From: Candidatus Kapaibacterium sp.
Lineage (GTDB): Bacteria > Bacteroidota > Ignavibacteria > Kapaibacteriales > UBA4661
NCBI GenBank assembly: GCA_025055035.1
Contig: JANWZB010000001.1
Coordinates: forward strand, 4,785-68,784
Direction: 5' to 3'
Length of the DNA stretch: 64,000 nucleotides
Both the position numbers and the translations under genes were made by a program. Shown here piece by piece: positions 7,867 through 63,535 of the stretch (its first letter is position 1; the number at the start of each line of letters is the position of its first letter). The notes under the pieces were generated by a model that worked only from the letters and a program-made list of their open reading frames with translations, was not told the origin of the DNA and did no database searches.

Positions 7867-7945
7867 ATTTCTGCCTTTTGGTGTTTGTGCATTTTGCAAT
7901 AACGGCATCATTGATCATCACCATCTGCACTCTTATCACAATAGC

Positions 7946-10132
7946 TTACGTATCTAGAGCCTTTCTTCCTATGAGGAAGTAGGTATTCATATATCCTTTA
8001 CTCTTTATTTCAATGCTACCACGTTCTTCAAAAGCAAATGTATCTCGGAGGGATCGATACACTGCCTCAGAGCAATGTATTCGCCTAGGTTCACCGTGAG
8101 ATTCCATACGACTTGCTGTGTTGACGGTATCACCCCACAAATCATACGTAAATCTATTTTGACCAATAACTCCTGCTGTTGCTTCGCCACAGTGAATACC
8201 AATGCGTAAGGATAAGTCCATATTAAGAAACTCAGCGCAGCGTTGGATTTCTTGCATCATTTCCAGAGCAAGGTCTGCCATAGCGACAAGATGGTCAGGA
8301 CGTGATGATGTAGAAAGCCCTCCGGCAACCATATATGCATCGCCAATAGTCTTAATTTTTTCTAGCCCGTAGTTTTGCGTGAGCGTGTCGAATGAAGAAA
8401 ACACGACATTCAGCATATCTACAAGCTCTCGTGGACTAATATGGGCAGATAGCTTAGTAAAACCAACAATATCAGCAAACATGACACCTACATTCGACAG
8501 ACCATCTGCAATACTCCCTTCCCCTTTCTTTAAGCGCTCGGCAATAGTTTCAGGTAAGATACTCTTCAGTAGATGATCGGATTTTTCACGCTCACGCTGA
8601 ATTTGAGCAATATACAGGTGTTGCTGACGGCGAATCTGATACAACTCGTGATGGAACTTCAAGCGCGCAAGGATTTCTGCTTTTTGGAATGGCTTAATGA
8701 TATAGTCGGAGCCACCAGCATCAAAGCCCTTTACAATTGCTTCGGTATCGTTTACACCACTCATGAAAATTATAGGAATATCACGTGTAGTAGCTGTATG
8801 CTTCAGCTGGTTACACACATGATATCCATCAATATCGGGCAAAACAACATCGAGAAGAACGATGTCTGGAGTGCGTGTTCTAACAGCCTGTAGGGCTTCT
8901 TGGCCACTTGTTACCAGCATAAGCTCAAACATTTCGTCGTGCAAAATATGCTTGAGCATCGAAAGATTAGTTATCGAATCATCAACTATCAGCAGAAGCG
9001 GCTTTGCCTGTGATTGCTCAAACTTTTCCTCGAAGGACTCACGTACAATCTGTGTCAGTACGGAGCGATGACTATCAGCGTGCGCTGTACTCACAGTAGC
9101 AGGAGCAGTGTTGTCGGAGTATTCATCATGGCTCTGGTCATGATTATATGTAAGAAGCTGCTGCTCAGTCTGTTCATTGCTGGTAATGCTTGCTTCCGCG
9201 CTATTGGTGATGTTTGTGTGTTCTGTCTGCTGGTGCATATCTGGCTGAAATGTGCGGATATCTGGATCTTGACTTTGAGGAAGATACTGCGCCACCCGCA
9301 ACGATTCCTGCACAATCTGGCGTATATCCTGCACATACTTTTTCATTGCGTGCTCTGCAAGGCGAGGAATATCCGTTACTTCTTGCATAAAGCTTTCGAC
9401 CGCGGCAAATCCTTGTACCATCTCGCGCACAGCAAAATGTAGTTCCGATTGACGATTCAGCACGTCAGCTTGTATTTTGCGTATTGCATCGAGATGCTCC
9501 TGTATTGCACTATATTGCTCATACAGTTCTGGCTCTTGCTCGCTCGCATCAGAAGACATCTGTAAAGTATTGGCAATATGCTCAAGAGTTGTTTCAACCT
9601 GCTTCTGTATGAGGTCAAGCTCTGTTCCAAAAATATTGGTGAAATCTTCTCGTAGTAAGTCTGGTAGCGCTAGTTGCAAGGATTCGAAGCTGTGTTGAAA
9701 CTGTTGCTCGAACTGTTGTCCTATGTGTTCCTGCACGACATAGTTAAGCTGCTGTATAAATTCATGTTCCAAGAACTCACGAATCTGCTGAAGCTGTGCT
9801 TGAGCCTGCATTTGCATCTCTCCACTCAACGAGGATTGGAGCACAACAAGCGTATCGTGTAACATTGCTGCAGATTGCTTTGTTTCACCTATCAATGCTT
9901 CGATAGTACCTTGTTCTTTGTGCGATGATTCAAGGATTGTAGTTGCTCGCTGTATATTGAGCATCATTTTCGAAAATGCGCCCTTTAATTCCCCTAGCAT
10001 ATGCGCTTGCTCCGTCAGCATCTGCGCTTGAGCACGTGATGATTGACGCGCTTGCCACACCAGCCACAGTAATACCGCGCTACATATTACAAGGATAGCA
10101 AGCGTACTAGACACTAGACTAAACTCAGACAT
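7946..10132 (-). CDS. membrane-anchored class III adenylate/guanylate cyclase with internal response-regulator receiver domain
   Basis: N-terminal TM helix and a long Q/E-rich coiled coil. Receiver domain LLLIVDDS...DIVLLDVVLPDIDG...DYIIKPF. Cyclase domain with FADIVGFT, KTIGDAYM and WGDTVNTASRMES. Start trimmed to MSEFSL. Confidence 0.8.
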   Translation of the reverse strand: MSEFSLVSSTLAILVICSAVLLWLVWQARQSSRAQAQMLTEQAHMLGELKGAFSKMMLNIQRATTILESSHKEQGTIEALIGETKQSAAMLHDTLVVLQSSLSGEMQMQAQAQLQQIREFLEHEFIQQLNYVVQEHIGQQFEQQFQHSFESLQLALPDLLREDFTNIFGTELDLIQKQVETTLEHIANTLQMSSDASEQEPELYEQYSAIQEHLDAIRKIQADVLNRQSELHFAVREMVQGFAAVESFMQEVTDIPRLAEHAMKKYVQDIRQIVQESLRVAQYLPQSQDPDIRTFQPDMHQQTEHTNITNSAEASITSNEQTEQQLLTYNHDQSHDEYSDNTAPATVSTAHADSHRSVLTQIVRESFEEKFEQSQAKPLLLIVDDSITNLSMLKHILHDEMFELMLVTSGQEALQAVRTRTPDIVLLDVVLPDIDGYHVCNQLKHTATTRDIPIIFMSGVNDTEAIVKGFDAGGSDYIIKPFQKAEILARLKFHHELYQIRRQQHLYIAQIQREREKSDHLLKSILPETIAERLKKGEGSIADGLSNVGVMFADIVGFTKLSAHISPRELVDMLNVVFSSFDTLTQNYGLEKIKTIGDAYMVAGGLSTSSRPDHLVAMADLALEMMQEIQRCAEFLNMDLSLRIGIHCGEATAGVIGQNRFTYDLWGDTVNTASRMESHGEPRRIHCSEAVYRSLRDTFAFEERGSIEIKSKGYMNTYFLIGRKALDT

Positions 10133-10336
10133 ACACCCTCGCACCGAGCAATGAGACAATACCACTGCATAGCAGAAATATACAAATTCATCTCTTCAAA
10201 ATTCTCTGAAAAGCGCCATGAGTACAGATTTTTGACGGAATGTCTACAGCAATAGCAATTTGCCAGATTATTCGATAAGGTGTATTTTTGTAGCCTACAG
10301 GTTGTGTCGTCTGCTATATGTTAAAGGGAGCAATCG

Positions 10337-21253: not shown

Positions 21254-21280
21254 GAGAAAACAGGGTTCAAGAAATCGTTG

Positions 21281-41348: not shown

Positions 41349-41482
41349 GCACAAAACACTTTATGAAACAATTTTATGTAGTGCGCAAATTACAAAAAAT
41401 CTTGCGAAGCATTGGCATATCTTAGCTTCGCCATCATAGAAAATTTTGTTTGAACTAGTTTTTCCTCCTATCTTCGCTGTGC

Positions 41483-43649: not shown

Positions 43650-45515
43650 CTACCGCACAATGAGTACAGGGATATTCAGCTCGTAGCGTACGGGCGAAAT
43701 CGTCTTCCCCATGAGCATTCCCAGAAGTCCACGATGTCCATGACCACCCATGACTAGTAGTTCTATCTGGTGCTGCTGTGCAAGGCGAACAATTGCCTTC
43801 GGCACGTTGCCAAATCCAAGTTCACAATAGACTTCGATACCTTCTTTAGATAAAGCATCCGCAACACGCCGCAAATATATATCATCTTCTCGTGCCTCTG
43901 CATCAAATGTTGCCCCCCCATACACGACCCCACCAGCACCCTCTACAACATGAAAAAGATATAACTCAGCATGATGCTGCTTTGCAAGCATCACTGCTTC
44001 ACTGAGCACTTTTTTATCTTTGTCGGAGAATGCAATTGTAACACCAATTTTCTTGTATGATCGTGCTTCAAGCTCTAGACGAGCACCTTCTTCGGGAGTT
44101 GTAAAGACTTTAGGACGCTGTCTGCCACGTGCTGTTCTATCCAGAAAAGGTTTGATAGTAATGTATGCAAGAAGCCCTATCAACACGCTACTCCCAAGCA
44201 GGATAGTTGTTTTTACTAGCCACGATGACGACACTGTAAGCACTGCAGACACCTGCTCCACAACAAGCTGAATATTTAGCGTAATAATTATTGAAGCCAC
44301 AATCCACGCTAGCACTGCAACACACGACCTATTGACAAACTCCCCCATGAGCCGACGGTCTGAGGTAAAATGAATAAGTGGAACAATTGCAAAAGGTAGC
44401 TGCAAACTCAAAATAACTTGGCTAAGAATTAACAACTGGTATGTCCCTGATTCTCCAGCAGTGAGTAATACCCATACCGCTGGCACAATAGCAACCATGC
44501 GCGTTATAAGCCTGCGTAAAAACGGACGTATTCTAAAGTGCAAAAACCCTTCCATCACAATTTGCCCAGCTAGTGTTCCTGTGAGCGTTGAAGATTGACC
44601 CGCAGCCAACAATGCAATGGCAAACAACGTCCCCGCAAGCGTTGTTCCCAGCAAAGGAGAAATAAGCTCATGTGCTTGCTGCAGTTCAGTAACAACAATG
44701 TTGTTCTTGTGAAACGTTGCCGCTGCTAGCACAAGAATTGCAGCATTAACAAAAAATGCCGCGTTCAGCGCAACTACCGAGTCGATTAGGTTATACTTGG
44801 CTGCTGTACGCTTTCCCTGTACAGTAGGCTCAAAGGCTCTTGTTTGAACGAGCGCAGAATGCAGATACAGATTGTGTGGCATGACGGTTGCACCAATGAT
44901 GCCTATTGCTACAAATAATGCTCCTTCAGGCATGTTTGGAAGAAATCCTCGCATCACCTCGTGCGGTTGAGGCTTCGATAGTACAAGCTCTATCACAAAG
45001 CATCCCCCAATCATAGCAACAATAGCAACAATAAATGCCTCAAACTTCCGCACACCAAGGTTCTGAATGAGCAAGAGTAACAACGTATCAACCCCCGCAA
45101 TAATGACTCCCCAAAGTACCGGAATACCAAACAGCAAATTGATGCCTATGGCTGTTCCGAGAACCTCTGCTAGGTCGCAGGCAGCTATAGCTACTTCCGC
45201 TAGAACCCACAGCATATAGGCAATAGGGGTTGGGTAATTATCACGGCAAGCTTGTGCCAGATCACGTCCTGTAACAATCCCTAACCGAGCAGACAGCGTC
45301 TGAAGCAACACCGCCATCATATTCGACATCAATAGCACCCAGACAAGTGCATAACCGAAGCGTGCTCCACCTTCAATATCTGTTGCCCAGTTGCCGGGAT
45401 CCATGTACCCAACACTAACAAGATATGCCGGACCAAAAAATGCAAATATACGTTTCCATCCGCGCTGAGGAAGAGCTACCGTATGTGCTGGTTGTGGTAG
45501 TGATGATGCTTTCAT
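43650..45515 (-). CDS. mntH: NRAMP-family divalent metal (Mn2+/Fe2+) transporter fused to a C-terminal universal stress protein (UspA) domain
   Basis: NRAMP signature GPAYLVSVGYMDPGNWATDIEGG and 11-12 TM helices. C-terminal 150 aa with UspA motifs (LVMGGHGHRGL...NIPVLIVR). Confidence 0.85.
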   Translation of the reverse strand: MKASSLPQPAHTVALPQRGWKRIFAFFGPAYLVSVGYMDPGNWATDIEGGARFGYALVWVLLMSNMMAVLLQTLSARLGIVTGRDLAQACRDNYPTPIAYMLWVLAEVAIAACDLAEVLGTAIGINLLFGIPVLWGVIIAGVDTLLLLLIQNLGVRKFEAFIVAIVAMIGGCFVIELVLSKPQPHEVMRGFLPNMPEGALFVAIGIIGATVMPHNLYLHSALVQTRAFEPTVQGKRTAAKYNLIDSVVALNAAFFVNAAILVLAAATFHKNNIVVTELQQAHELISPLLGTTLAGTLFAIALLAAGQSSTLTGTLAGQIVMEGFLHFRIRPFLRRLITRMVAIVPAVWVLLTAGESGTYQLLILSQVILSLQLPFAIVPLIHFTSDRRLMGEFVNRSCVAVLAWIVASIIITLNIQLVVEQVSAVLTVSSSWLVKTTILLGSSVLIGLLAYITIKPFLDRTARGRQRPKVFTTPEEGARLELEARSYKKIGVTIAFSDKDKKVLSEAVMLAKQHHAELYLFHVVEGAGGVVYGGATFDAEAREDDIYLRRVADALSKEGIEVYCELGFGNVPKAIVRLAQQHQIELLVMGGHGHRGLLGMLMGKTISPVRYELNIPVLIVR

Positions 45516-47823: not shown

Positions 47824-48114
47824 TTAGCATATCCGCATTATTGCGAGAACATAGCCCACAAATCCTACAAATGCACACGAAGGGTGCTTCCACGTCCACG
47901 GTCGACTACGGGGCATATACACCAGCGAGGCAGCTACAATGAGCAAAGAGCAACGAAACGATACAAAGATTGTGATAATGCACGACATGAACACAACAAA
48001 GTAGAGCATATGATGGGCTGAACCAAAATGCCAGAGCCTTGCTTGTGCGATAAGACCAACAAGCATGTTCACACAATACAATCCAAACGCTCCGTACAGA
48101 AGAATATCATTCAT
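47824..48114 (-). CDS. small hypothetical membrane protein (2-3 TM), last gene of the PKS cluster
   Basis: Hydrophobic segments LLYGAFGLYCVNMLVGLIA and YFVVFMSCIITIFVSF. The longer ORF-track version (to 48450) overlaps the methyltransferase gene out of frame and is Cys-rich junk. Confidence 0.3.
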   Translation of the reverse strand: MNDILLYGAFGLYCVNMLVGLIAQARLWHFGSAHHMLYFVVFMSCIITIFVSFRCSLLIVAASLVYMPRSRPWTWKHPSCAFVGFVGYVLAIMRIC

Positions 48115-48146
48115 GAGGATTGTTAGCTTTTCGCGCGCTACATACT

Positions 48147-48695
48147 CTATTTTAGTTCCTGCAACGCCCTTTCCTCGATAGGAATTCGTATAGCAAGCAA
48201 GAGCACAGCATTGACAAGACTCGCAACGATAGCTGTTTTCCATGCAAACACTATCATCGGTACAGCAGCAATCTCTATAGCAACTGCTAGGTAGTTTGGA
48301 TGTTTCCAATATCTGTATGGACCGGCACACACACGCTCTTCCCCCGGCACAACAATAACACGGGTATTCCATGCGTATCCTAGAGATACGATCGCCCAGT
48401 AGCGTAGTACTTGTGCAGCAAGAAAGAGCAGACCGCATATATACGAGCATATGGATTCTAGAGTGTAGCTATGCTTCCACAGCTCAGAGTCATGTACACT
48501 ATACCACCCTTCCACACACCACGCCACTATCCACGCACTATGTAGCAGTACGAATGCTCGATAGTGTTCTCTTCCAAACTCCTTGCCGCCACGTGATAGG
48601 GCATGTGCCCGGTTGCGTTCCGCTAGGTACAGCTCGGAAAGGCGCTGTATGACAATGACACTAGCAAGGCACAACAGTATAGTCAGCATTGTCAT
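48147..48695 (-). CDS. ICMT/PEMT-family membrane methyltransferase (BpsB-like)
   Basis: C-terminal motifs GPYRYWKHPNYL and RIPIEERAL typical of the isoprenylcysteine carboxyl methyltransferase family. Start trimmed to MTMLTIL so it begins 10 nt after the PKS stop. Confidence 0.75.
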   Translation of the reverse strand: MTMLTILLCLASVIVIQRLSELYLAERNRAHALSRGGKEFGREHYRAFVLLHSAWIVAWCVEGWYSVHDSELWKHSYTLESICSYICGLLFLAAQVLRYWAIVSLGYAWNTRVIVVPGEERVCAGPYRYWKHPNYLAVAIEIAAVPMIVFAWKTAIVASLVNAVLLLAIRIPIEERALQELK

Positions 48696-48705
48696 GATAT
48701 CAATA

Positions 48706-49767
48706 CTAGGTGCAAAAGAGCAGAAGTTCTGCACTAAAGCCCGGACCGAGAGCTATCATCATACCAAGCTCGTGAGGTGCAGGGGCAGACCGCATCAATT
48801 CCTGTAACGCAAAAAGCACAGAAACGCTCGACATATTGCCATAGTTCTGCAACACGTGGTATGCTGTGCAGAGATCTTGTTTAGTAAGTTTCAAGCTGTC
48901 TTGGTACGCTTGTAGTACTTTTGCCCCTCCAGCATGAAGAACAAAATGGCGGATTTCTTCTGTACAGATACCCCACGCTGCACAAGCTTCTGCAACTATA
49001 CCGGGAAGATGCTCCGTAATGAGTGTAGGAATATCACGCGCAAAGCGCACCTTGAGACCTGTCTCAATAATGTCCCAGCCCATGATATCCTCAGAGTCAT
49101 CAAATATGTAGCTGTACGATGCAAGGATACGCATTCCTAGTTCCTTGTCTTCTTGTGGCTTCTTTAACACAAGAGCAGCTGCACCGTCAGCAAACAAACT
49201 CGACGCAATAATGTTGGATTTCGAAATATCGTTGCGCTGAAACGTTAGGCTGCATAATTCAACAGCAGTACATAAGCCGTATGAGCCATCCGGCATTGCC
49301 GATAGAAGCTCTGCAGCTCTAGCTAATCCAGCTACTCCACCAGCACAGCCTAGACCCCACACCGGTACTCGCTTGACTGTTCGAGGCAAGCATAGTGCTT
49401 GTATCAGCTTAGCATCCAGACTCGGTGTGGCAATGCCTGTTGTTGATACTGCCACAACCATGCTAATATCCTCGCGTTGTATACCAGCATTCTGTATTGC
49501 GCTATTCGAAGCGTTAACAAGGAGCTTTATGGCAGTTTCCACAAAAAGATTGCTAGATTCTACAAAGCTTCGCTGCTGTTCAAACCAAGACAGCGGCTGC
49601 GAAAAGTACCGGCTTGTAATCTGTGTATTCTCAAATACAGGCATAAGCCGCTGCAAGCCTTGATACTCGCCTGAAAAGAGCCTGTATACAAGCTCCCTAA
49701 CATCGTGCTGCGAGACTTTATACGGAGGAAGAGCAGTGGCGATACTCTGTACAAGAATAGGAATCAT
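48706..49767 (-). CDS. type III polyketide synthase (chalcone/stilbene synthase superfamily, BpsA/RppA-like)
   Basis: Catalytic Cys in GLGCAGGVAGL, His in HAGGAKVL, Asn in GNMSSVSV, and a C-terminal GPGFS motif. Confidence 0.88.
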   Translation of the reverse strand: MIPILVQSIATALPPYKVSQHDVRELVYRLFSGEYQGLQRLMPVFENTQITSRYFSQPLSWFEQQRSFVESSNLFVETAIKLLVNASNSAIQNAGIQREDISMVVAVSTTGIATPSLDAKLIQALCLPRTVKRVPVWGLGCAGGVAGLARAAELLSAMPDGSYGLCTAVELCSLTFQRNDISKSNIIASSLFADGAAALVLKKPQEDKELGMRILASYSYIFDDSEDIMGWDIIETGLKVRFARDIPTLITEHLPGIVAEACAAWGICTEEIRHFVLHAGGAKVLQAYQDSLKLTKQDLCTAYHVLQNYGNMSSVSVLFALQELMRSAPAPHELGMMIALGPGFSAELLLFCT

Positions 49768-49799
49768 ATGCGCACGCTCACAACAGCCCTACGATAGCA

Positions 49800-50600
49800 C
49801 TATACATCATTTTCTGGAATTTGGCAAGTGTTACGAAAGGCAAGCTGCGAGACTGTTTTGCGTTGATTGCTCGTCCAATCAATGCGCGGGCGTTCGCGCT
49901 GCTCTGGGAGATAACCAAGACGATATATCGCCATAAGCTCTAAATCATCTGGAACGCAAAGCAACATTTTCAGTTCCTCCCATGCCTCAGGAATTTCCAT
50001 CGGTGTAGAAATAAATTGCATGCCCATACCCAGCTCACAGGTTGTTAGCCAGATATTTTCTATCGCCATTCCCAACGATAAAATACAGTACAACGCAGAG
50101 AGCTCTCCGGGGATGTATTCGTCCTTCTTCAGCAGTGCAGCCAACAGCAGAGGGCTAGCAGCTACAAGCTTTGTATTATCTGCCCCTAGTATCTTCGGTA
50201 CTCCCACACTCCGCATAATGCTCAATGCTGTGTCAGTAAACATATGCTTTATGAATGGACGCAGAGCAGGAGGAAGTTGGTCTATGAAAATGCCATCGCG
50301 CCGTTCTTCCATTTCTTGATGAGTAAATCGGAAGTACTTCTTGTAGCGAGCAAAGAACTTCCCTTCGTCGATAAGCTGTGTCATTGTGCGACCAGCAATA
50401 TCGGAGATACGGAAGCGAACTGCCTCGTCGTCAATCAGCACAAAACGCCACGGCTGAGAGTTAAAGTGACTTGGAGCACGGCTTGCTGCTTCAATAAGCA
50501 AGTGCTGATGCTCACGTGACACAGGGTCGGGCTTGAAGTACCCGTTTGTTGTGCGGCGTGTGCGAATAGCATCGAGAAGCTCCATACCATCCATTGGCAA
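49800..50600 (-). CDS. nitroreductase-superfamily flavoprotein
   Basis: [18 protein letters not shown] signature. 266 aa, larger than classical NfsB. First gene of the PKS cluster. Confidence 0.75.
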
Positions 50601-50716: not shown

Positions 50717-53272
50717 TTATGAGTACTGTGCTGCAACAACGGACTGCTTTGCTTTGCGTGCATCCGTAAACCGATTTGTTGTGTTAATAAGGCGCATTGC
50801 CAGAGTAAAGATGAGTTTTTTGGCAATGGTAGGATTATTGTGCACCAGTTCGTCGATAGTGCAGTCGTAGTGTGTAATAACAGAATCAGTTTTCGCGATA
50901 ATTGTCGCTGTGCGAGCTTCATTGGTAATTTCGCTCATTTCGCCGAAGATTGTCTCAGGGACACTAAATTCAGTAATTTTGACACCCTCCTTAAATACTT
51001 CCACAACGCCTGAATGCATGATAAAGAATCCCCGTCCCTTTTCTCCTTCCTTCATAATGATATCACCTTTCTTCGCATGGATGCGTTCTTCGCGGTACTG
51101 CCGTGCTGCCGAGGTAAGCAGCTCTGTCTTCTGCATCGAAGACGCTTGGCCTGAAAGCGTAGCTATACTCTTGTATTCATCGGGTACACGAGCAACATCT
51201 TCCAAAGCTGCAGAACGGTCTAACCGAAACCGTGCAACGAGCTTATTGAGTTGTTCTGTGATAGAAGCAAGGTGATTGATAGTTTGTGCAACGCGCTCAG
51301 TCTCTTGGGCAGATTGCGAGGCAGTCGAGGCAATATTTTCTACGCTTGTCAAGATATGAAGACTTGTCGCAGATTGCTCTTCTGTTGCCGAAGCGATTTG
51401 GCTAATGCGGTCAAGTACAGACTGCGAACTTTCGATAATCTCTCGGAGCGCTACCCCTGCCGAATCAGCAAGAGCAATGCCTTCTCTCACACGGTTGCTA
51501 CTAGCATACATTAGTGATGTCGCACTTTCAATATCCTTAAGGATTTGGTCAAGCATTGCGCTAATTTGCTTTGTTGCTGTTGATGTTTGCTCGGCAAGGC
51601 GTGCAATTTCATCAGCAACAACAGCAAACCCGCGCCCTTGTTCGCCAGCTCGTGCAGCTTCGATAGCAGCATTCAGTGCTAGAAGGTTCGTGCGTTTCGC
51701 AATAGCCTCGATAGTTTGAATAATCTTGCCTATATCTTTGCTCGATGTCCCAAGATTTTCGATGTTGATAGCAGAGCTTTTGACTACATCAGCGAGCGAG
51801 CGAATGTTTTCAACGGCTTGTGCCACTACAAAACCGCCTTCAGCAGCCACTTTGCTATTGTCAGCAGCAAATTTGGTTGTCTCGCTAGCATTGCGTGCAC
51901 TGTGTGTAATTGCCTTGTTCATTTCTTCGAGTGCAGTGTTCACCTCATCAGATTGTACCCATTGCTTCTGTGCCCAGAATACTAATGCTTCTTTCGACTC
52001 ATTAATTTGCTTTGCAACGCGGCGGGTAAGCTCCACTGCCTCGATAACTTCTATCATCATTCTGCGGATATTGCCCACAACTTCATTAAATCCAGCATAT
52101 AAGCGCCCAATGTCATCAGAGCTAGAAACCTGCAGTTGTACGGTCAAGTCGCCCTGAGCAAGAGCTTGCATCTCATGCAAAATCGTCGATACACTCGTAT
52201 TCAAATATGCGCTCTGCGATTCAAGCTGATGCAACGTCTTATTGAGTTCTTCCTGTTGACGAAGCAAATTATTCTGCTGCGCAATGATCTTGGTATTGGA
52301 TTCGCGCAGCGTTGTTGCCATGCTATTGAATGCATGGGCAAGTGCCCCAATTTCGTCGTTGGAGCGTACGTGAACAATCTGTGTTTGTCCGCTTGCTAGC
52401 GCTTCTGTAGCATGTTTCAGCTCGAGCACAGGCCGCACAAGACTTCGCGCAAGGAAAAATGCTATGGGTAGCCCTGTCAGAAAGGCAAGAGCAATAACGC
52501 TGTACATCAGGCGTTCTGATGTTGCTGCCACGACACTTTTTTCCTCAATCATGTGTTTGCTTGTGCCGAGAGCATCCGACTCAATAGTGTAAAGCCTCAG
52601 TGATAGGGTATCAAGCCTTTTGAACACTGCTGAGAGTTTTTTGAATGTTGTGCGGTAATGGTCTATGAGCGATGCGGCACTTGCTTTTGTTGCAATAGGC
52701 AAAGATGATGTAGCCACACCTGCTTCGAGCACTGCTATGTCTTCATCAAATTCTTTAATATGCTTTTCCAGCTTGCGCATAATAAAGTTTTTCTCATCAC
52801 GGCGCACCTGAAGCAGCATAAGATTCAACTCGGTAAGTCGAATCTCTTCAAACAAATCCTCCAAATCGTGTGCACTTTTGCGGAATGCTCCTTCAATACC
52901 ACTATTTTCCGTTAAGCCACGCTCTTGCATTGTTTCAGCAAACATGTGCCATAGCTTTTGATACTGTTCAAGCACAGATTGCAGTGCTATTCGCTCGTGT
53001 TCTACAATCATCTCGGACAGCACAGCATTTCCTTGCTGCAAAAGAGTGTTATTCTGGTGTATGTAGCTTTCTTTACGTGTCGTCGTAAAATCAACGCGAT
53101 TGGAGCGTAGGTTCAGAATAGTATTCGCTAGTGTTTGAATCCTATTCAGTTCGTCCATAAGCCGCGCCTGCCTATATGCAAAGAATGCTACAATCGCCGT
53201 GAATGCACCCATTATACCGGCAAGACCAAAAATCTTCACAAATAGCGACACAGAGCGTATCTTGTCCAGCAT
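50717..53272 (-). CDS. methyl-accepting chemotaxis protein with two HAMP-like segments and a C-terminal cyclic-nucleotide-binding (CAP effector) domain
   Basis: Two TM helices flanking a helical sensor region. HAMP ([14 protein letters not shown]). MCP signalling hairpin ([34 protein letters not shown]). C-terminal cNMP-binding domain ([24 protein letters not shown]...FGEMS...RTATIIA). Confidence 0.85.
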
Positions 53273-54220: not shown

Positions 54221-54562
54221 ATGTACAAGCTTGAAATTTCAACGCACGAACATGCCGGTATTGGGATTGTCAGCCTAGTTGGAGAGATTGACGCTGCGAC
54301 AGCACCAATTCTTGAGATGGAGCTTATCCCTCTGGCACAACAGTACAACCGTCTTATTCTCGACCTATCTGCAGTACGGTCTATTTCGAGTATTGGATTG
54401 CGCAAGATTCTTATGCTGTATCGCACAATTAAAATCCACAATGGGCAAATCCTTCTTGCTGGTATGTCTGAATCTCTGCGAAATATTATGTGGGCATCGG
54501 GCTTTCTAAATTATTTCATCGTTGCAGAATCACTTGAGATGGGCATTGCTGCTTTTGAATAA
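54221..54562 (+). CDS. STAS-domain anti-sigma-factor antagonist (SpoIIAA-like)
   Basis: 113 aa with the STAS pattern of RsbV/SpoIIAA proteins: ...GEIDAATAP...LILDLSAVRSISSIGLR. Confidence 0.8.
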   Translation: MYKLEISTHEHAGIGIVSLVGEIDAATAPILEMELIPLAQQYNRLILDLSAVRSISSIGLRKILMLYRTIKIHNGQILLAGMSESLRNIMWASGFLNYFIVAESLEMGIAAFE

Positions 54563-54568
54563 ACGTGA

Positions 54569-55807
54569 TTGCGTGTCATGTCTTCATTGCATATATACCC
54601 TGCCGAGCGCGTACCACGCATTCTTGTTGTAGACGATATGCTCGAGAACCTTCAAGTACTGCGCGGACGGCTGCGCGTCAAAGGATATGAGCTTTACGAA
54701 GCTTCAAGTGGAAACGCAGCACTAGAATTACTTTATCACGCAAAGCACGACAATTCAACGCTACCAGACGTCATTCTCCTTGATGTTCAGATGCCTGACA
54801 TAGACGGCTTTGAGGTATGCCGACGCATCAAAGCAGATACTGAGCTCCGAGACATTCCTATCATTTTTCTAACAGCACGCGGGGATATGGACGATATCAT
54901 ACAAGGATTCGAGCTTGGTGCTGTTGATTATATTGTGAAACCTTTCCATGCAGCAGAACTACTCACACGCATCAAAACGCACATAGATCTTAAATTTTCA
55001 CAAGATGCCCTACGCCAGAGCAATGCACTTCTTACGCACCTCAACCACGAAAAAAGCGAGCTTATGAGCATTGTAGCACACGACCTCAAAAACCCTCTAG
55101 CAACAGTGCGCTGGCTTGTGGATATACTAAAAACCTCCTCGCTTTCTTCCGAGCAATACAGACAAACACTCGAAGCTATTTCGGCATCTGTAGAGGGCAT
55201 GGCACAGCTTGTTAGCAACTTGCTTGATGCGAACGCACTGGATGAACCATATCATTTCTCCAACACTCTCGAGTATGGCTATAGACACATATCCCCAGAA
55301 AAAGTTAATCTTGTGTTTATCGCAGCTGAGGTGCTCGGACGCTATGAGCACCATGCTCGCAAAAAGCAGATTACAACAACATTCCATAATACAGCAACTT
55401 CGGCAACAGTCTTTGTTAACTCCGAGATTTTGAAGCAAATCTTGGATAATCTGATTTCCAACGCCATCAAGTACACACCTTACGGTGGCACAGTGTCTAT
55501 TCTTGTTTATAATCCTTCGGAAAATCCTTCAGCTGTGCAAGTGTCAGTGCAGGATAGTGGTATCGGCATTCCATCCCACGAACAACACAGACTCTTTACA
55601 AAATTTGGTGTAACTTCCTCGAAACCTACAGGAGGAGAGCATTCAACGGGGCTAGGGCTTTATATTGTTAAAAAACTGAGCGAGGCAGCAAAGGGACGCG
55701 TTTCCTATAAACCTGCCATGCCACAAGGCTCGATATTTTCTGTTGAGTTTCCCGTGTTTGCGCCACAATCGCAGTATTCTTCCGACAATGACGATGATAC
55801 CACATGA
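54569..55807 (+). CDS. receiver-domain plus histidine-kinase hybrid protein (cytoplasmic)
   Basis: Receiver ILVVDDM...DVILLDVQMPDIDG...DYIVKPF. HisKA H-box SIVAHDLKNPL. HATPase N and G boxes (NAIKYTP, GLGLYIVKK). Confidence 0.85.
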   Translation: MRVMSSLHIYPAERVPRILVVDDMLENLQVLRGRLRVKGYELYEASSGNAALELLYHAKHDNSTLPDVILLDVQMPDIDGFEVCRRIKADTELRDIPIIFLTARGDMDDIIQGFELGAVDYIVKPFHAAELLTRIKTHIDLKFSQDALRQSNALLTHLNHEKSELMSIVAHDLKNPLATVRWLVDILKTSSLSSEQYRQTLEAISASVEGMAQLVSNLLDANALDEPYHFSNTLEYGYRHISPEKVNLVFIAAEVLGRYEHHARKKQITTTFHNTATSATVFVNSEILKQILDNLISNAIKYTPYGGTVSILVYNPSENPSAVQVSVQDSGIGIPSHEQHRLFTKFGVTSSKPTGGEHSTGLGLYIVKKLSEAAKGRVSYKPAMPQGSIFSVEFPVFAPQSQYSSDNDDDTT

Positions 55808-58113
55808 AGCATCTTGAGTGTTCTTCGAAAGAGCAGGAAAGACCAAAACGTCGCTTTACAATAAAGATGACGGCAGCAATACTTCTTGCTGCTGTGGCGC
55901 CGTCTTCGGTCGTTGGATATATTTGCCTTCAAGCCGCTCTTGCTGCTCACAAGCATGCAGCACGTGAATACTACGTTGCGGTTGCAGAACGCGTACAAGA
56001 CCATCTAGATCATCGGATTGACAATGCCTCAGCACTTCTTGCACGAACACGCGATATATTTAGCAACACCAGCATTACAGAAAGTTCTGCTGTAGAAATT
56101 GTCCGCGCATTGCTTGCCGAAAGTGACGAGGTTTCCGCTCTAGGCATATACGATGCAGCAGGACAGAATATCGACATACTCAGCAAGGGTGCGTCCCACA
56201 CACTGCCTGAACAGCTTTCCGAGCAGTATCTTCGCCAGCTTCAGTCTTATGCTAACTCTCAGCGCGTTATTGTCAGACCACCGCAAGCCTTGCGTGAAGG
56301 CTCTTCTGTTGGCATACCGCTGTGTGCTATATGGAGAGCTACGGACTCACATCAAGGGAAACAGCATGCCGGTACTCAAATTGTTAGTTATTTGATTGCA
56401 GTCCTCGACTATGAATATTTGTCGCAAGTAGTAGAACACATCTCTTCGCAAATGTTTTATGGCGCACGCAACCGCATTTGGCTTTGCGACTCTACACTGC
56501 ATGTATTCGCATCATCCGAGCGCGACCATGCTCGTACAAACATAAATATGCAGTCCTACGGACTGTTCCAACACACAGACATATCGAGTAGTGCGAGCTA
56601 CTGTGCTAGTACTATTCGCGAATACATCGGCAGCAATGATGTTCCTATGCTTGGCATTGCTCTTTTTGTCCCCACACTTCAGAGTATCATTGTAGTTGAG
56701 GAGCCACAAGCAACCATATATCGCTCGCTCGATGCGCTGCGTTCTACAGCATTGTTGTGGATAGCATGTGCTACGCTTCTATCAGGTGTTGCTTGTATCA
56801 TACTGGCGCAGCAATTTTCCAAGCCTATCCGTGTTCTTAGCAATGCTGCACATATGATTGCTCACCACAATTTTACTGTCGTTCTTCCTCGCTCTCGCAA
56901 CGATGAGTTCGGCTTGTTATACACGACTTTTAATACGATGGCAGCCGAACTCCGTACATATCATGCGCTCAATATTGCCCGTGTCATTGCCGAACGCAAT
57001 AAGCTTGAGGCAGTCGTTCGCGAAGCATACGATGGTATCATACTCCTCGACCCTTCCGGTACCGTTACTCTCATCAATCGCACCATACGCACATGGCTAG
57101 CACTACCCGATACAAGCTCTGAAGCAATTCACATCGACACTCTTGCAGAATCATCTCCTATTCTTATGCAGATTGCCGAAGCTTTCCACCGTCTTACCAT
57201 AAGCCCTAATGTAGTAGAGCACTGCGAATTATCGTTCACACCAACTAATGAGCTCCGAGAGCGCACATTGCGCGGTACTTTACTGAAGGTTATTCCGCAT
57301 GTTTCAGCTTCTGCGCTAATATCACATGAGCTATATCGTTCAGAACCTCCTGCAGAATACTCTCAGCCGCCACTTGAACCAATTGCCTACGTCCTTGTTC
57401 TCCGCGATGTCTCGCGCGACGTCGAAGCCGACAAGCTCAAGACCGAACTTGTAGCAGTAGTTGCGCACGAGCTACGCTCACCGCTTAATAGCATTATTGG
57501 TCTTGCTGAACTCATAGCAGACGGTATAGCAACCGAGCAAGAAATGATAGAATATGGACGTACTATTACCTCTCAAGGACGCAAGCTTGCAGGCATTATC
57601 AACAGAGTGCTTGATATTAGCCGTTTAGAGCTTGGGAAAACTGACATTCGTCGTGTTCCAGTGAACCTGTGCAATGTTATCCGTGCAGCTCTTACAACCA
57701 ACGCTCCTCTTGCCGCTCAAAAGTCTATACGCATAGAATGGAACTGCCCTGAGCCAGATGTAGCCACTGTACACGGCGACCCCGATTTACTTGGACAAGT
57801 CATGGTTAATCTTCTGAGCAATGCTATAAAATACTCGCCGCACGGCACATCGGTGCACGTCCATGTGCATCGCGAAGGCTCATCCATACGTGTTTCCGTT
57901 CGCGATGAAGGCTATGGTATCTCAGATTCATCGCAGCAAAAGCTGTTCACTAAGTTCTTCCGAGCAACTGACGACCAACGCATCAAGCGTGAATCTGGAA
58001 CAGGTCTCGGGTTAGCTTTTGTTAAACAGGTTGTTGAGCAGCACGGTGGCGAAGTAGGTGTTGACAGTCGTTTGAATGAGGGTTCGACGTTTTGGTTTCG
58101 GTTGCCTGTTTAG
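55804..58113 (+). CDS. membrane sensor histidine kinase (2 TM, HAMP, PAS-like, HisKA, HATPase)
   Basis: Start overlaps the previous stop (ATGA). TM helices at both ends of a periplasmic sensor region. H-box VAHELRSPL. HATPase motifs NAIKYSP and GTGLGLAFVK. Confidence 0.85.
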   Translation: MKHLECSSKEQERPKRRFTIKMTAAILLAAVAPSSVVGYICLQAALAAHKHAAREYYVAVAERVQDHLDHRIDNASALLARTRDIFSNTSITESSAVEIVRALLAESDEVSALGIYDAAGQNIDILSKGASHTLPEQLSEQYLRQLQSYANSQRVIVRPPQALREGSSVGIPLCAIWRATDSHQGKQHAGTQIVSYLIAVLDYEYLSQVVEHISSQMFYGARNRIWLCDSTLHVFASSERDHARTNINMQSYGLFQHTDISSSASYCASTIREYIGSNDVPMLGIALFVPTLQSIIVVEEPQATIYRSLDALRSTALLWIACATLLSGVACIILAQQFSKPIRVLSNAAHMIAHHNFTVVLPRSRNDEFGLLYTTFNTMAAELRTYHALNIARVIAERNKLEAVVREAYDGIILLDPSGTVTLINRTIRTWLALPDTSSEAIHIDTLAESSPILMQIAEAFHRLTISPNVVEHCELSFTPTNELRERTLRGTLLKVIPHVSASALISHELYRSEPPAEYSQPPLEPIAYVLVLRDVSRDVEADKLKTELVAVVAHELRSPLNSIIGLAELIADGIATEQEMIEYGRTITSQGRKLAGIINRVLDISRLELGKTDIRRVPVNLCNVIRAALTTNAPLAAQKSIRIEWNCPEPDVATVHGDPDLLGQVMVNLLSNAIKYSPHGTSVHVHVHREGSSIRVSVRDEGYGISDSSQQKLFTKFFRATDDQRIKRESGTGLGLAFVKQVVEQHGGEVGVDSRLNEGSTFWFRLPV

Positions 58114-58157
58114 GATGCGCGTATCTCATTGTTTCCTTCGTGCATATTCTTGCGCTT

Positions 58158-59669
58158 ATGATGAATAAGGAATACTGCTATTCTCGCATATATTACCACT
58201 TGTTGTCGATGCTTGCTGCACTTATCACAAGTATGCACCTGTCACTTTGGGCACAAGAAGAGTACAGCCTCGCACCCGGCAAGAAAATCATCATTACAGA
58301 CGCGACTTTTAAGAAGGGAAGCGCTGTTATAGAAGAGTCTCAGCGTCCTGCTTTTGCACGACTAGCGGAGTATCTTAAACAACGCGATCATTTAAATATC
58401 GAAATAGGAGGACACGCTGATAACACAGGCACAGAAGAACAAAACGTCAAGTTATCGCTCGAACGGGCTGAAGCTGTGCGAGAATATCTCATCCATAGCG
58501 GTATTGCCGCAAGCCGCATTCGTACTCGTGGTTATGGATCAACGTATCCTATCGCCGACAATGCTACTGAGGAAGGACGCACACGCAATAGAAGAGTTGA
58601 GATTATTGGTCTAACAGCATTCTCAGGAAAGCTCCTTGCTGGAGTTGACGGCACGGCGCTTGCTCCTGATGCACGTATTACTATGCTGAAGCCTGTGGTT
58701 CGTGTTATGCCTGCATGGGAGAACACATGGCACGAAGCTACCATCAATCAACCGCTCTACGAAGCTTTCAAAATCTCGACCGATGAAGGAGCAAGAGCAG
58801 ATATCACGTTTCGCAACAACAGCGTCCTGCACATACGCGATAATACTCTGGTTATGATATATGGCTTTTCCCCTCAGCAGCGCGGCTTGGTAAGTGATGA
58901 TATTGCCACAGTCCACGGACAAGGAACAAACGTTGAACTTACAAAAGGCGTCCTTACATTCAAACTTCGGGACATGCGCCAGTCCGACACATTCTCTGTA
59001 AAAACCCGTGTTTCCCAAATCGGCTTTAATACACATTCTAGTGACGCAGCAGCGAAAATCTACGTTGATAACCGCCAGCGCTCAATTATTTCCGTGCTCG
59101 AGGGTCAAGCATACGTCAAAGTTACAAACAACGACCCCAGAATAGGTCAAGTGTTACGTGTCTCCGAAGACTTTGGAATTATTGTTGGCGATAGCTTGTA
59201 CGCTCAAGAGAATGCATATCGGCTTCCTCCTATGCCCGTATTGCACGAGCCAATCGACCGCGTCGAGCTTACAGAAGGCTCTCAAAGTATTCGATTTGCA
59301 TGGGAGAGTAATGGGTATCCTGCTCGTCTCGAGGTAGCTACGAATGCTGACTTTAGCGAGATAGTGTACAATCAGGTTCGCCGCTCCCCGCAAGCGCATG
59401 TTATTCTTCCTGCAGGCAAGTACTTTGTGCGGCTTACCAGCATAGACAGCATTGGATTCGAGAGCAAGAGCCTGATTCGCGCTCTAGTTGTTGAGTATCC
59501 TCAGAGTGCTCGCATCACATCTCACCGCTTTCGATACCTCGAGCTCGGACTGTTTATTATCGGCACAGCAGCAGTGTGGGCTGGGATACTTATCAGTAAG
59601 ATAGTCCTTGTACGCATCGGCGTAGGGATGATACTTGCAGCTATCTTAATGCTTGCTTTTGCGTCGTAA
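58158..59669 (+). CDS. OmpA-domain plus FecR-like domain protein with C-terminal TM anchor
   Basis: Signal peptide. OmpA C-like domain (NIEIGGHADNTGTEEQNVKLSLERAEAVREYL...RNRRVEI). FecR-like segment (ITFRNNSVLHIRDNTLVMI...GVLTFKL). Two C-terminal hydrophobic helices. The ORF track starts at 58092, overlapping the kinase gene. Confidence 0.6.
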   Translation: MMNKEYCYSRIYYHLLSMLAALITSMHLSLWAQEEYSLAPGKKIIITDATFKKGSAVIEESQRPAFARLAEYLKQRDHLNIEIGGHADNTGTEEQNVKLSLERAEAVREYLIHSGIAASRIRTRGYGSTYPIADNATEEGRTRNRRVEIIGLTAFSGKLLAGVDGTALAPDARITMLKPVVRVMPAWENTWHEATINQPLYEAFKISTDEGARADITFRNNSVLHIRDNTLVMIYGFSPQQRGLVSDDIATVHGQGTNVELTKGVLTFKLRDMRQSDTFSVKTRVSQIGFNTHSSDAAAKIYVDNRQRSIISVLEGQAYVKVTNNDPRIGQVLRVSEDFGIIVGDSLYAQENAYRLPPMPVLHEPIDRVELTEGSQSIRFAWESNGYPARLEVATNADFSEIVYNQVRRSPQAHVILPAGKYFVRLTSIDSIGFESKSLIRALVVEYPQSARITSHRFRYLELGLFIIGTAAVWAGILISKIVLVRIGVGMILAAILMLAFAS

Positions 59670-63231: not shown

Positions 63232-63350
63232 AATACCATTAGCTTCTGAAAGATTACAACACACCACACAACTTGATCTACTGATAGCGTTGAAATCTAC
63301 ACAATCCCTTTGCGAGAGCAAAGCAAAATGATACAACACTTTCATAAAGT

Positions 63351-63535
63351 TTCCTGTAAACGGGGAGCTTACCAGCATGCTGGATGATGTCTGATGTTAT
63401 TTCGGAGACTGTTCACGCATCCTGTAAATGGGGATGCTCATCCAGAAAATATCCTGTAAATGGGGAGGTTTCAAACACTTCTTCTCGGCTATCCTGTAAA
63501 TGGGGAGGTTTCTATCCTGTAAATGGGGAGAGTTG
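63351..63535. repeat. iteron cluster A: one degenerate plus four spaced copies of the 22-bp iteron ATCCTGTAAATGGGGAG(A/G)(G/T)TTC
   Basis: Copies at 63351-63370 (degenerate, TTCCTGTAAACGGGGAGCTT), 63419-63440, 63451-63472, 63491-63512 and 63514-63535. Confidence 0.85.

What the first reader, a model, noticed from the sequence alone, without database searches (positions are those of the whole stretch)
50717..53272. Chemoreceptor with a C-terminal cyclic-nucleotide-binding (CAP) domain
The 851-aa MCP has the normal TM-sensor-TM-HAMP-signalling-hairpin layout. It then continues into a roughly 130-aa cNMP-binding domain ([24 protein letters not shown]...FGEMS...RTATIIA) in place of the usual methylation-pentapeptide end. 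MCPs with C-terminal PilZ (c-di-GMP) domains are known. A CAP-type cAMP/cGMP-binding MCP is, to my knowledge, not characterised. It would couple second-messenger levels directly to the chemotaxis array.
Basis: partly seen in the sequence, partly recalled or inferred. Interest (0 to 1): 0.65.

Follow-up and report, generated by a model that had tools for sequence, protein, structure and literature searches.

The report
Chemoreceptor with tethered cyclic-nucleotide sensor
An uncultured Kapaibacteria (Bacteroidota) bacterium encodes an intact, conserved chemotaxis receptor with a cAMP/cGMP-type binding domain on a flexible tether at its C-terminus, which probably lets an internal second messenger tune the receptor, an arrangement I found in no searched paper.

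Summary
Window 50717-53272 (-) is one intact 851-aa ORF: TM1, an HBM-fold periplasmic sensor, TM2, two HAMPs, a 40H-class MCP signalling hairpin, a ~40-residue disordered linker and a canonical cyclic-nucleotide-binding (CNB) domain (Pfam 53.3 bits, cutoff 27.5).

The phosphate-binding cassette [12 protein letters not shown](T/S)AT is invariant in 15 orthologs. The AF2 model has pLDDT above 90 in the CNB core, and its best PDB matches are cAMP/cGMP-bound CNB domains.

The fusion is a single ORF in 13 independent loci from Kapaibacteria-type MAGs. One further MAG has it split by a frameshift. The CNB domain is as conserved as the signalling core (86% mean pairwise identity; sensor 48%, linker 21%).

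Among the 150 best representatives of 1.84 billion proteins, only this cluster combines MCP and CNB. Five literature searches found no description.

The window also encodes a receiver-linked adenylate cyclase, so cAMP is the likely ligand.

Not shown: ligand binding, the effect on signalling, and a CheA/CheW core in this genome. There are none in the window; two papers report them in Kapabacteria MAGs.

Closest precedent: PilZ-bearing chemoreceptors (Tlp1, Cbp1). Verdict: new variant of a known kind, moderate interest.

The parts
50717..53272 (-). Complete MCP-CNB gene (851 codons plus stop at 50717-50719)
   Evidence: ORF list; Pfam HAMP + MCPsignal + cNMP_binding; identical protein P0001 in NCBI MAG GCA_033578975.1
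53174..53245 (-). TM1 (about residues 10-33)
   Evidence: Hydropathy windows with mean Kyte-Doolittle above 1.6 starting at residues 7-15
52514..53173 (-). Periplasmic sensor domain (residues 34-253), helical bimodular (HBM) fold, ligand unknown
   Evidence: AF2 pLDDT 92.3, seven helices; Foldseek best match McpS ligand-binding domain 2yfa/2yfb, TM 0.74, then the TorS sensor; no significant Pfam hit; least conserved folded part, 48% mean pairwise identity
52436..52513 (-). TM2 (about residues 254-279)
   Evidence: Hydropathy windows starting at residues 254-261
52301..52456 (-). HAMP 1 (residues 273-324)
   Evidence: Pfam PF00672 best stretch 273-324; P-V..L at 281 and DEIG at 306
52055..52207 (-). 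HAMP 2 (about residues 356-406; boundaries approximate)
   Evidence: Pfam reports two HAMP stretches; DDIG motif at 386
51218..51985 (-). MCP signalling hairpin (residues 430-685), 40H-type; tip [11 protein letters not shown] at 543
   Evidence: PF00015, 142 bits; gap-free 315-residue match to the CtpM model and 28 residues longer than the matched span of the PRK15041 MCP model; 138 residues from the tip to RFR; 86-94% identity among orthologs
51365..51394 (-). Methylation-site consensus [10 protein letters not shown] (residues 627-636)
   Evidence: Regex match to [ASTG][ASTG]xx[EQ][EQ]xx[ASTG][ASTG]; E/Q alternation at the first position in orthologs P0005 and P0009
51098..51217 (-). Disordered, hypervariable linker (residues 686-725)
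   Evidence: pLDDT below 50 for model residues 31-60; 38-55 residues long and 21% mean identity in orthologs
50753..51097 (-). Cyclic-nucleotide-binding (CNB) domain (residues 726-840): beta-barrel, PBC helix, alphaB and a long alphaC
   Evidence: PF00027, 53.3 bits; PDB sequence hits to PKG/PKA-R CNBs; AF2 pLDDT above 90; Foldseek hits to cAMP/cGMP-bound CNBs; 86% mean identity among orthologs
50903..50947 (-). Phosphate-binding cassette [15 protein letters not shown] (residues 776-790; E778, R787)
   Evidence: Invariant columns F776 G777 E778 ... R787 A789 T790 in 15 orthologs; aligned to the FGE...R[ST]A of PKG CNBs
54221..54562 (+). Divergently transcribed STAS-domain gene; a conserved neighbour with only a positional link
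   Evidence: PF01740; found beside the MCP-CNB gene in 9 loci
7946..10165 (-). Receiver-domain class III adenylate cyclase, a likely in-genome source of cAMP (context only, 40 kb away)
   Evidence: PF00072 + PF00211, 210 bits; adenine-specifying Lys (EKIKTIGD) and Asp (YDLWGD) aligned to the AC9 C2 domain

Best explanation
This is a genuine transmembrane chemoreceptor of a Kapaibacteria-lineage bacterium. It reads two inputs. The first is an unknown periplasmic ligand, sensed through an HBM-fold sensor and passed through two HAMP domains. The second is the cytoplasmic level of a 3',5'-cyclic nucleotide, most likely cAMP, bound by a C-terminal CNB domain.

The CNB domain hangs from the membrane-proximal end of the 40H signalling bundle on a ~40-residue flexible tether. 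Nucleotide binding at the phosphate-binding cassette would reposition the alphaB/alphaC lid helices, as in other CNB domains. That would change how the tethered domain contacts the adaptation (methylation-helix) region of its own or a neighbouring receptor dimer. The result would be a bias in kinase control or in receptor sensitivity, which is the kind of methylation-like adaptation proposed for c-di-GMP at the PilZ domain of Tlp1.

Shown: the architecture, its intactness, its conservation, the CNB fold, an intact binding cassette, a disordered tether, and an adenylate cyclase in the same contig.

Inferred: ligand identity, the contact site, the direction of the effect, and the link to flagellar chemotaxis.
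For: Architecture and scores. Nineteen full-length orthologs at 61-73% identity share the three-domain architecture. The gene is a single ORF in 13 loci, and six GTDB species representatives carry it. PBC residues E778 and R787 and the whole cassette are invariant. The best PDB sequence matches are PKG/PKA-R CNB domains, with the FGE...R[ST]A motif aligned. The AF2 model has pLDDT above 90 for residues 730-830, an 8-stranded barrel, a PBC helix and a long C-helix. Foldseek's top hits are cAMP/cGMP-bound CNBs, including the bacterial CRP, GlxR and Bd1971. The CNB domain is 86% identical across orthologs, against 48% for the sensor and 21% for the linker, so it is under purifying selection. The hairpin tip is canonical, and one perfect methylation consensus shows E/Q alternation. 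A receiver-linked cyclase with the adenine-specifying Lys and Asp lies in the same window. Kapabacteria MAGs are reported to carry flagellar and CheABWRYZ genes (PMC7509429, PMC6338057). Functional precedent: Tlp1 binds c-di-GMP through a C-terminal PilZ domain and changes reversal frequency (PMC3604760).
Against: No cheA/W/Y/R/B or flagellar gene lies in the 64-kb window or within about 10 kb of any ortholog, and the rest of this genome could not be searched. Ligand binding is untested, and the R-T-A-T cassette does not discriminate cAMP from cGMP (general knowledge of CNB domains). The tether is disordered, so there is no rigid helical path for allostery and the contact surface is unknown. 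The cyclase is 40 kb away and was not found within the ~10-kb flanks fetched for the ortholog loci, so its link to the receptor is circumstantial. Only one strict methylation consensus was found.
Confidence: 0.6

Rival explanations
1. The receptor belongs to a chemosensory pathway with a non-motility output (alternative cellular function). One example would be a pathway that controls the receiver-linked adenylate cyclase, so that cAMP is a product feeding back on the receptor rather than an independent metabolic input to flagellar chemotaxis.
For: No motility or che genes lie near any copy. A REC-adenylate cyclase is in the same window. The locus is surrounded by two-component and STAS partner-switching genes. 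From general knowledge, the Pil-Chp system of P. aeruginosa controls cAMP synthesis.
Against: MCP genes are commonly scattered away from che operons. Kapabacteria MAGs are reported to be flagellated with a CheABWRYZ set. The cyclase is 40 kb away and was not seen in the ortholog flanks. The signalling domain is an ordinary 40H type.
Confidence: 0.15
2. The CNB domain is not an allosteric input. Instead it is a nucleotide-dependent assembly or recruitment module. It could pair with the CNB of the partner subunit or a neighbouring dimer (CRP-like C-helix pairing), or dock a partner protein such as the adjacent STAS protein or an adaptation enzyme. It would then take the place of a tethered pentapeptide docking site.
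For: The tether length (38-55 residues, disordered) resembles pentapeptide tethers (general knowledge). The long invariant C-helix [22 protein letters not shown] is predicted as a 36-residue helix. The STAS neighbour is conserved in 9 loci.
Against: No interaction data exist. The closest relatives are 122-125-aa standalone CNB proteins with no obvious partner genes.
Confidence: 0.15
3. The CNB fold here binds something other than cAMP/cGMP, or nothing, as in CRP/FNR-superfamily members that sense heme, 2-oxoglutarate or c-di-GMP. The domain would then be a different kind of cytoplasmic sensor.
For: CNB-fold domains have diverse ligands (general knowledge). No binding experiment exists. This mini-CNB subfamily (P0122-P0125) is uncharacterised.
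Against: The full PBC, with the ribose-phosphate-contacting Glu and Arg at PKA-like spacing, is invariant. From general knowledge, the non-cNMP members typically lack these residues. The best sequence and structure matches are nucleotide-bound CNBs.
Confidence: 0.08
4. The fusion is an artefact: a mis-assembly, or a read-through of two adjacent genes created by a sequencing error.
For: In one MAG (GCA_044227435.1) the gene is split into a 593-aa ORF and an overlapping 262-aa ORF.
Against: The same continuous ORF occurs in 13 loci from NCBI, ENA, JGI and Logan assemblies and in 19 protein clusters. The split copy breaks inside the MCP signalling domain, not at the domain junction, so it is the frameshifted one.
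Confidence: 0.01

Closest known systems
PilZ-domain chemoreceptors: Azospirillum brasilense Tlp1 (PMC3604760), Azorhizobium caulinodans Cbp1 (PMC6454048) and the A. brasilense PilZ-containing aerotaxis receptor (PMC6406031)
   Same: A transmembrane MCP with a nucleotide second-messenger-binding domain attached after the signalling domain at the extreme C-terminus. The proposed role is to integrate an intracellular messenger into receptor sensitivity or adaptation.
   Different: The appended domain is a CNB (cAMP/cGMP-type beta-barrel with a PBC), not a PilZ, and no PilZ hit appears at E<=1. The ligand class is a cyclic mononucleotide rather than c-di-GMP. The host lineage is Kapaibacteria (Bacteroidota) rather than Proteobacteria. 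No experiment exists for the present protein.
Standalone 'mini-CNB' proteins and CNB-receiver fusions (P0122-P0128, uncharacterised metagenomic proteins)
   Same: About 50% identical to the receptor's CNB domain, with the same PBC (TIFGEMSDIL.EPR) and the same C-helix motif ([16 protein letters not shown]). These are the likely evolutionary source of the module.
   Different: They are 122-125-aa single-domain proteins, sometimes in tandem pairs, or are fused to a receiver domain. They are not attached to an MCP, and no che genes are nearby.
Bacterial CNB-regulated proteins with solved structures: CRP/GlxR/Mtb-CRP, the Bd1971 cNMP-regulated EAL phosphodiesterase, and the SthK CNBD
   Same: The same fold and the same phosphate-binding cassette. 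Bd1971 shows a CNB domain gating another bacterial second-messenger or motility-related module.
   Different: In those proteins the CNB domain is joined to its effector by structured helices (C-helix to HTH, C-linker to pore, or linker to EAL). Here it is C-terminal and separated from the effector by a disordered 40-residue linker. There is no HTH, channel or enzymatic output.
McpS of Pseudomonas putida (HBM-sensor chemoreceptor) and 40H-class MCPs such as P. aeruginosa CtpM
   Same: The periplasmic domain has the McpS-type helical bimodular fold (TM 0.74). The cytoplasmic domain matches the CtpM model over 315 residues without gaps.
   Different: Only 11% sequence identity to the McpS LBD, and below the Pfam HBM threshold. 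McpS and CtpM have no C-terminal CNB domain.

Membership tests
Methyl-accepting chemotaxis protein (PF00015 MCPsignal) | Signalling domain scoring above the Pfam gathering cutoff | tested here: met
   142.1 bits against 34.6, residues 468-649
Methyl-accepting chemotaxis protein (PF00015 MCPsignal) | Conserved hairpin tip (kinase/CheW-contact region) | tested here: met
   [27 protein letters not shown] is invariant in 15 orthologs apart from one R/K exchange at R547. The resemblance to the E. coli Tsr tip is from memory.
Methyl-accepting chemotaxis protein (PF00015 MCPsignal) | Methyl-accepting Glu/Gln sites in the consensus context | tested here: met
   [10 protein letters not shown] at 627-636 fits the consensus, with E/Q alternation in orthologs. 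Actual methylation is not testable here.
Methyl-accepting chemotaxis protein (PF00015 MCPsignal) | CheA/CheW (and CheR/CheB) encoded in the same genome | not testable with these tools
   None in the window or the ortholog flanks. Clade-level reports are positive (PMC7509429, PMC6338057).
Cyclic nucleotide-binding domain (PF00027 / CAP_ED) | Profile score above the gathering cutoff | tested here: met
   53.3 bits against 27.5, E 2.9e-14, residues 732-800
Cyclic nucleotide-binding domain (PF00027 / CAP_ED) | Eight-stranded beta-barrel with a PBC helix and alphaB/alphaC helices | tested here: met
   AF2 model: eight strands, helix 118-123 (the PBC), helices 146-152 and 154-189, pLDDT above 90. 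Foldseek probability 1.00 to many CNB structures.
Cyclic nucleotide-binding domain (PF00027 / CAP_ED) | Phosphate-binding-cassette Glu and Arg (FGE...R[ST]A) | tested here: met
   E778 and R787, nine residues apart as in PKA/PKG, invariant in 15 orthologs
Cyclic nucleotide-binding domain (PF00027 / CAP_ED) | Binds cAMP or cGMP | not testable with these tools
   Needs ITC or DRaCALA on the purified domain
PilZ-type c-di-GMP-binding chemoreceptors (Tlp1/Cbp1) | C-terminal PilZ domain (PF07238) | tested here: not met
   No PilZ hit at E<=1; the C-terminal domain is a CNB. It may work like these receptors but is not a member.
PilZ-type c-di-GMP-binding chemoreceptors (Tlp1/Cbp1) | Second-messenger-binding domain placed after the MCP signalling domain | tested here: met
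   The CNB domain follows the end of the signalling bundle (RFR at 681) after a 40-residue linker
CRP/FNR transcription factors | C-terminal helix-turn-helix DNA-binding domain after the CNB C-helix | tested here: not met
   The protein ends about 11 residues after the C-helix, with no HTH domain in Pfam. The NCBIfam CRP model scores 19.7 bits against a cutoff of 266.
HBM (helical bimodular) sensor domain, PF16591 | Profile match | tested here: not met
   Only 2 of 11 orthologs hit HBM, best E 0.011
HBM (helical bimodular) sensor domain, PF16591 | Two stacked four-helix modules as in the McpS LBD | tested here: met
   Foldseek to 2yfa/2yfb: TM 0.74/0.72 over 235 columns, rmsd 3.3, from a model with pLDDT 92
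Pentapeptide-bearing MCPs | Conserved C-terminal xWxxF pentapeptide | tested here: not met
   The C-terminal tails are variable ([20 protein letters not shown] ...) with no conserved aromatic motif

The most novel reading that the evidence does not exclude
The receptor closes a second-messenger feedback loop inside a chemosensory pathway. In this reading, CheA-type phosphorylation controls the receiver-linked adenylate cyclase encoded on the same contig. The cAMP produced binds the tethered CNB domain, which resets receptor sensitivity. That would be a cAMP-based, methylation-independent adaptation mechanism in a Bacteroidota-lineage chemotaxis system.
Probability: 0.07. Interest if true: 0.8.

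Novelty: new variant of a known kind. Interest (0 to 1): 0.5.

Why it matters
Chemoreceptor arrays are the best-understood bacterial signal processors. The only characterised case I found of a nucleotide second messenger acting directly on a receptor is c-di-GMP at a C-terminal PilZ domain.

A conserved, selectively maintained CNB domain on a chemoreceptor would extend that principle to cAMP or cGMP, the messengers of carbon and energy status. It would do so in a poorly studied flagellated branch of the Bacteroidota.

The hypothesis is directly testable: does cAMP bias kinase control or adaptation? The design is also compact, a 115-residue sensor on a flexible tether, which could be reused to make chemoreceptors respond to an intracellular signal.

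If the function turns out to be ordinary, the finding is still a clean, clade-specific marker architecture for Kapaibacteria.

Tried and rejected
- **Assembly or frameshift artefact:** rejected. The ORF is intact in 13 loci. The only CNB-less relative, P0020, is a frameshift-split copy whose second ORF carries the CNB domain.
- **Same fusion outside the clade:** the exhaustive representative search with residues 600-851 gave 6713 hits, but only the best 150 are visible. Among those, only the query's own cluster has both domains. More distant independent fusions cannot be excluded.
- **Single-sequence search with the C-terminus:** it found only 46 candidates.
- **Profile search with A2:** it was swamped by a 260-aa CNB-FHA family because the alignment contained the full-length P0130. 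It was uninformative.
- **AFDB50 fold search:** the library was unavailable.
- **CRP-like adenine contacts (Thr/Ser in the C-helix):** Claim dropped.
- **Che genes near the gene:** none in the window. None in any ortholog's flank either.
- **Promoter and terminator scan around the gene:** counts equal the shuffled background, and Bacteroidota promoters are not covered.
- **Sensor domain by Pfam:** no significant hit. It was resolved only by structure prediction.
- **Context of the standalone mini-CNB genes:** no link to chemotaxis.
- **Literature:** five searches for any MCP with a cNMP-binding domain found none, and a sixth on C-terminal domains of chemoreceptors also found none. The library lacks most subscription-journal papers, so absence is not proof.
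Full report
**1. Observation**

The minus strand of window 50717-53272 holds one uninterrupted 851-codon ORF starting with ATG. Pfam finds three families above their curated cutoffs:
- HAMP: two stretches, best at residues 273-324.
- MCPsignal: residues 468-649, 142.1 bits against a cutoff of 34.6.
- cNMP_binding: residues 732-800, 53.3 bits against a cutoff of 27.5, E 2.9e-14.

Two hydrophobic segments (about residues 7-33 and 254-279) bracket a 220-residue domain.

The identical protein is deposited as 'MAG: methyl-accepting chemotaxis protein [Bacteroidota bacterium]' from assembly GCA_033578975.1, contig JAVQWN010000003.1.

**2. The fusion is not an artefact and is conserved**

Nineteen protein clusters at 61-73% identity cover the full length and carry the same three Pfam domains. 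Some are named Candidatus Kapaibacteriota or Kapaibacterium.

A scan of GTDB species representatives with a fusion-specific C-terminal alignment found six genomes, labelled Ca. Kapaibacterium sp. or 'Ignavibacteria bacterium' MAGs. That scan used only two exact peptide patterns, so it reaches close relatives only.

In all 13 loci fetched from NCBI, ENA, JGI and Logan assemblies, the MCP and CNB parts lie in one continuous reading frame. The single close relative recorded without a CNB domain (P0020) is a frameshift-split copy. A 262-aa ORF with the end of the MCP domain plus the CNB domain overlaps its end.

**3. Anatomy**

- *Sensor.* It has no significant Pfam match. It is predicted with pLDDT 92 as seven helices. 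Its best structural match is the helical bimodular ligand-binding domain of McpS (2yfa/2yfb, TM 0.74), followed by the TorS sensor. The ligand is unknown.
- *Signalling domain.* It matches the P. aeruginosa CtpM model over 315 residues without a length difference. It is 28 residues longer than the matched span of the PRK15041 MCP model. There are 138 residues from the tip Glu to the RFR motif that ends the bundle. That is about 20 heptads per arm, the 40H class.
- *Tip and methylation site.* The tip sequence [25 protein letters not shown] is canonical and conserved across the orthologs, with only an R/K exchange at one position. One strict methylation consensus ([10 protein letters not shown], 627-636) is present. 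Two orthologs read STQEQS there, the E/Q alternation typical of methyl-accepting sites.
- *C-terminus.* No conserved pentapeptide ends the protein.

**4. The C-terminal module**

After RFR comes a stretch of 38-55 residues that differs in length and sequence among orthologs (21% mean pairwise identity). AlphaFold2 predicts it as disordered (pLDDT below 50).

The folded domain follows, at about residues 726-840. It has eight beta strands, a short helix at the phosphate-binding cassette, alphaB and a long alphaC, with pLDDT above 90.

By sequence its best solved relatives are the CNB domains of Plasmodium and human PKG and of PKA regulatory subunits, and [15 protein letters not shown] aligns to their FGE...R[ST]AT cassette. 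By fold the top matches are nucleotide-bound CNB domains: PfPKA-R, T. thermophilus CAP, HCN2/4, PfPKG, GlxR, Mtb CRP and Bd1971.

The cassette is invariant in 15 orthologs, including E778 and R787. From established CNB biochemistry, these two residues hold the ribose 2'-OH and the cyclic phosphate.

The domain is 86% identical on average across orthologs. That equals the signalling C-arm (86%) and far exceeds the sensor (48%), so it is under strong purifying selection.

Its closest relatives elsewhere are uncharacterised 122-125-aa standalone CNB proteins (~50% identity) and CNB-receiver fusions. They share the same cassette and the same C-helix motif. These occur as tandem pairs or next to receiver domains, not near che genes.

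**5. Context**

No che or flagellar gene is in the window. None lies within about 10 kb of any ortholog either. MCP genes are often scattered, so this is not evidence against a role in chemotaxis. Two papers report flagellar genes and CheABWRYZ in Kapabacteria MAGs (PMC7509429, PMC6338057).

A divergently transcribed STAS gene is the one neighbour conserved in nine loci.

Forty kilobases away, the window encodes a receiver-domain class III cyclase. Its substrate-specifying Lys and Asp align with those of the mammalian AC C2 domain. It is therefore predicted to be an adenylate cyclase, which makes cAMP the more likely ligand. The R-T-A-T cassette itself does not discriminate cAMP from cGMP (general knowledge).

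**6. Mechanism**

*Best explanation (confidence 0.6).* This is a bona fide chemoreceptor that combines a periplasmic signal with cytoplasmic cAMP (or cGMP).

The CNB domain is anchored at the membrane-proximal end of a bundle about 210 Å long, by a tether of at most about 140 Å. By this geometric estimate it can reach the adaptation region but not the kinase-binding tip. I therefore infer that nucleotide binding changes a contact with the methylation helices of the same or a neighbouring dimer. That would shift kinase bias or sensitivity, in line with the methylation-like adaptation role proposed for c-di-GMP at the Tlp1 PilZ domain (PMC3604760).

*Rivals:*
- A non-motility chemosensory pathway, possibly with cAMP as a feedback product (0.15).
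- A nucleotide-dependent pairing or recruitment module (0.15).
- A non-cNMP ligand (0.08).
- An artefact (0.01, refuted).

**7. Comparison and novelty**

It works like the PilZ-bearing chemoreceptors but is not one of them, since no PilZ domain is present. It is not a CRP-type regulator, since it has no HTH and ends just after the C-helix.

The Tlp1 paper's survey of C-terminal MCP domains lists PilZ, Cache_1, SBP_bac, Phosphonate_bd and PAS9, but no cNMP-binding domain. Five full-text searches found no paper describing an MCP with a CNB domain, and a sixth search on C-terminal domains of chemoreceptors also found none.

In a library of 1.84 billion cluster representatives, the 150 best matches to residues 600-851 include only one cluster with both domains, the query's own. 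Weaker independent fusions below rank 150 cannot be excluded, and public domain-architecture databases could not be queried.

I rate it a new variant of a known kind: a chemoreceptor with a C-terminal second-messenger sensor that uses a different messenger class and a different fold. It is confined, so far as seen, to one uncultured clade.

**8. Verdict**

Its functional part remains inference.

Interest is 0.5. The architecture is clean, conserved and previously undescribed in the searched literature, and it makes a specific question testable. Set against that, MCPs are notoriously modular, the principle has a precedent, the host is uncultured, and neither the ligand nor the pathway is established.

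Noticed in passing
window 7946-10165 (-): A 739-aa protein with a receiver domain and a class III nucleotidyl cyclase domain. It has the adenine-specifying Lys (EKIKTIGD) and Asp (YDLWGD), so it is predicted to be a phosphorylation-controlled adenylate cyclase. Its N-terminal ~390 residues have no Pfam hit.
   Followed up: partly
window 5809-7911 (-): A 700-aa ORF directly downstream of the cyclase with no Pfam match. Weak relatives (79-123 bits) appear at the edges of ortholog loci L003 and L004.
   Followed up: no
window 62236-63378 (-), 40593-41354 (-), 39673-40557 (-): A Rep_3-type plasmid replication initiator (Rep3_N + Rep3_C), a ParA ATPase and an adjacent ORF with no Pfam hit. Rep3 plus a DUF1285 gene recur near the MCP-CNB gene in a 64%-identity ortholog's contig. 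This replicon may be a conserved large plasmid or chromid, or Rep3 may be chromosomal in this clade.
   Followed up: partly
window 54221-59669 (+): A run of signalling genes transcribed divergently from the MCP gene: STAS, REC-HisKA-HATPase, HAMP-HisKA-HATPase and OmpA-FecR. Only the STAS gene keeps its position next to the MCP-CNB gene in other genomes (9 loci).
   Followed up: partly
window 47824-50600 (-): A nitroreductase and a type III polyketide synthase lie directly downstream of the MCP gene; the source assembly also calls an ICMT-family methyltransferase next (L001 14578-15126). In the source assembly and the closer relatives (L001, L003, L004) all three are annotated together; the nitroreductase and PKS also recur in L009, L010 and L012. 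Probably an alkylresorcinol or pyrone-type lipid cluster.
   Followed up: no
   Followed up: no
window 43650-45515 (-): An Nramp metal transporter fused to a C-terminal universal stress protein (Usp) domain.
   Followed up: no
window 19859-24562 (-) and 26188-28449 (+): A SusC/SusD-like pair and a further TonB-dependent receptor, consistent with the Bacteroidota assignment. Two ANF_receptor/Peripla_BP_6 binding proteins lie at 10870-12186 and 17586-18986.
   Followed up: no
L016 6001-8546 (GCA_044227435.1): The orthologous MCP-CNB gene is split by a frameshift inside the signalling domain into 593-aa and 262-aa overlapping ORFs. This is either a sequencing error or a pseudogene in that MAG.
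   Followed up: partly
L017 7570-8375; L020 8001-9196: The closest standalone relatives of the CNB module occur as a tandem pair of 122- and 124-aa genes. In a genome with PSCyt1/PSD1/DUF1501 genes nearby (which suggests Planctomycetota to me), one sits next to, or is fused with, a receiver domain. A separate 260-aa CNB-FHA family (named hits Thermoanaerobaculia/Acidobacteriota MAGs) dominated.
   Followed up: partly
MCP-CNB orthologs (alignment A1): The N-terminal arm of the signalling hairpin is 94% identical among orthologs whose sensors are only 48% identical. The nearest non-family MCP among 5.8 billion proteins is only ~32% identical. This is an unusually isolated and constrained signalling domain.
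   Followed up: no
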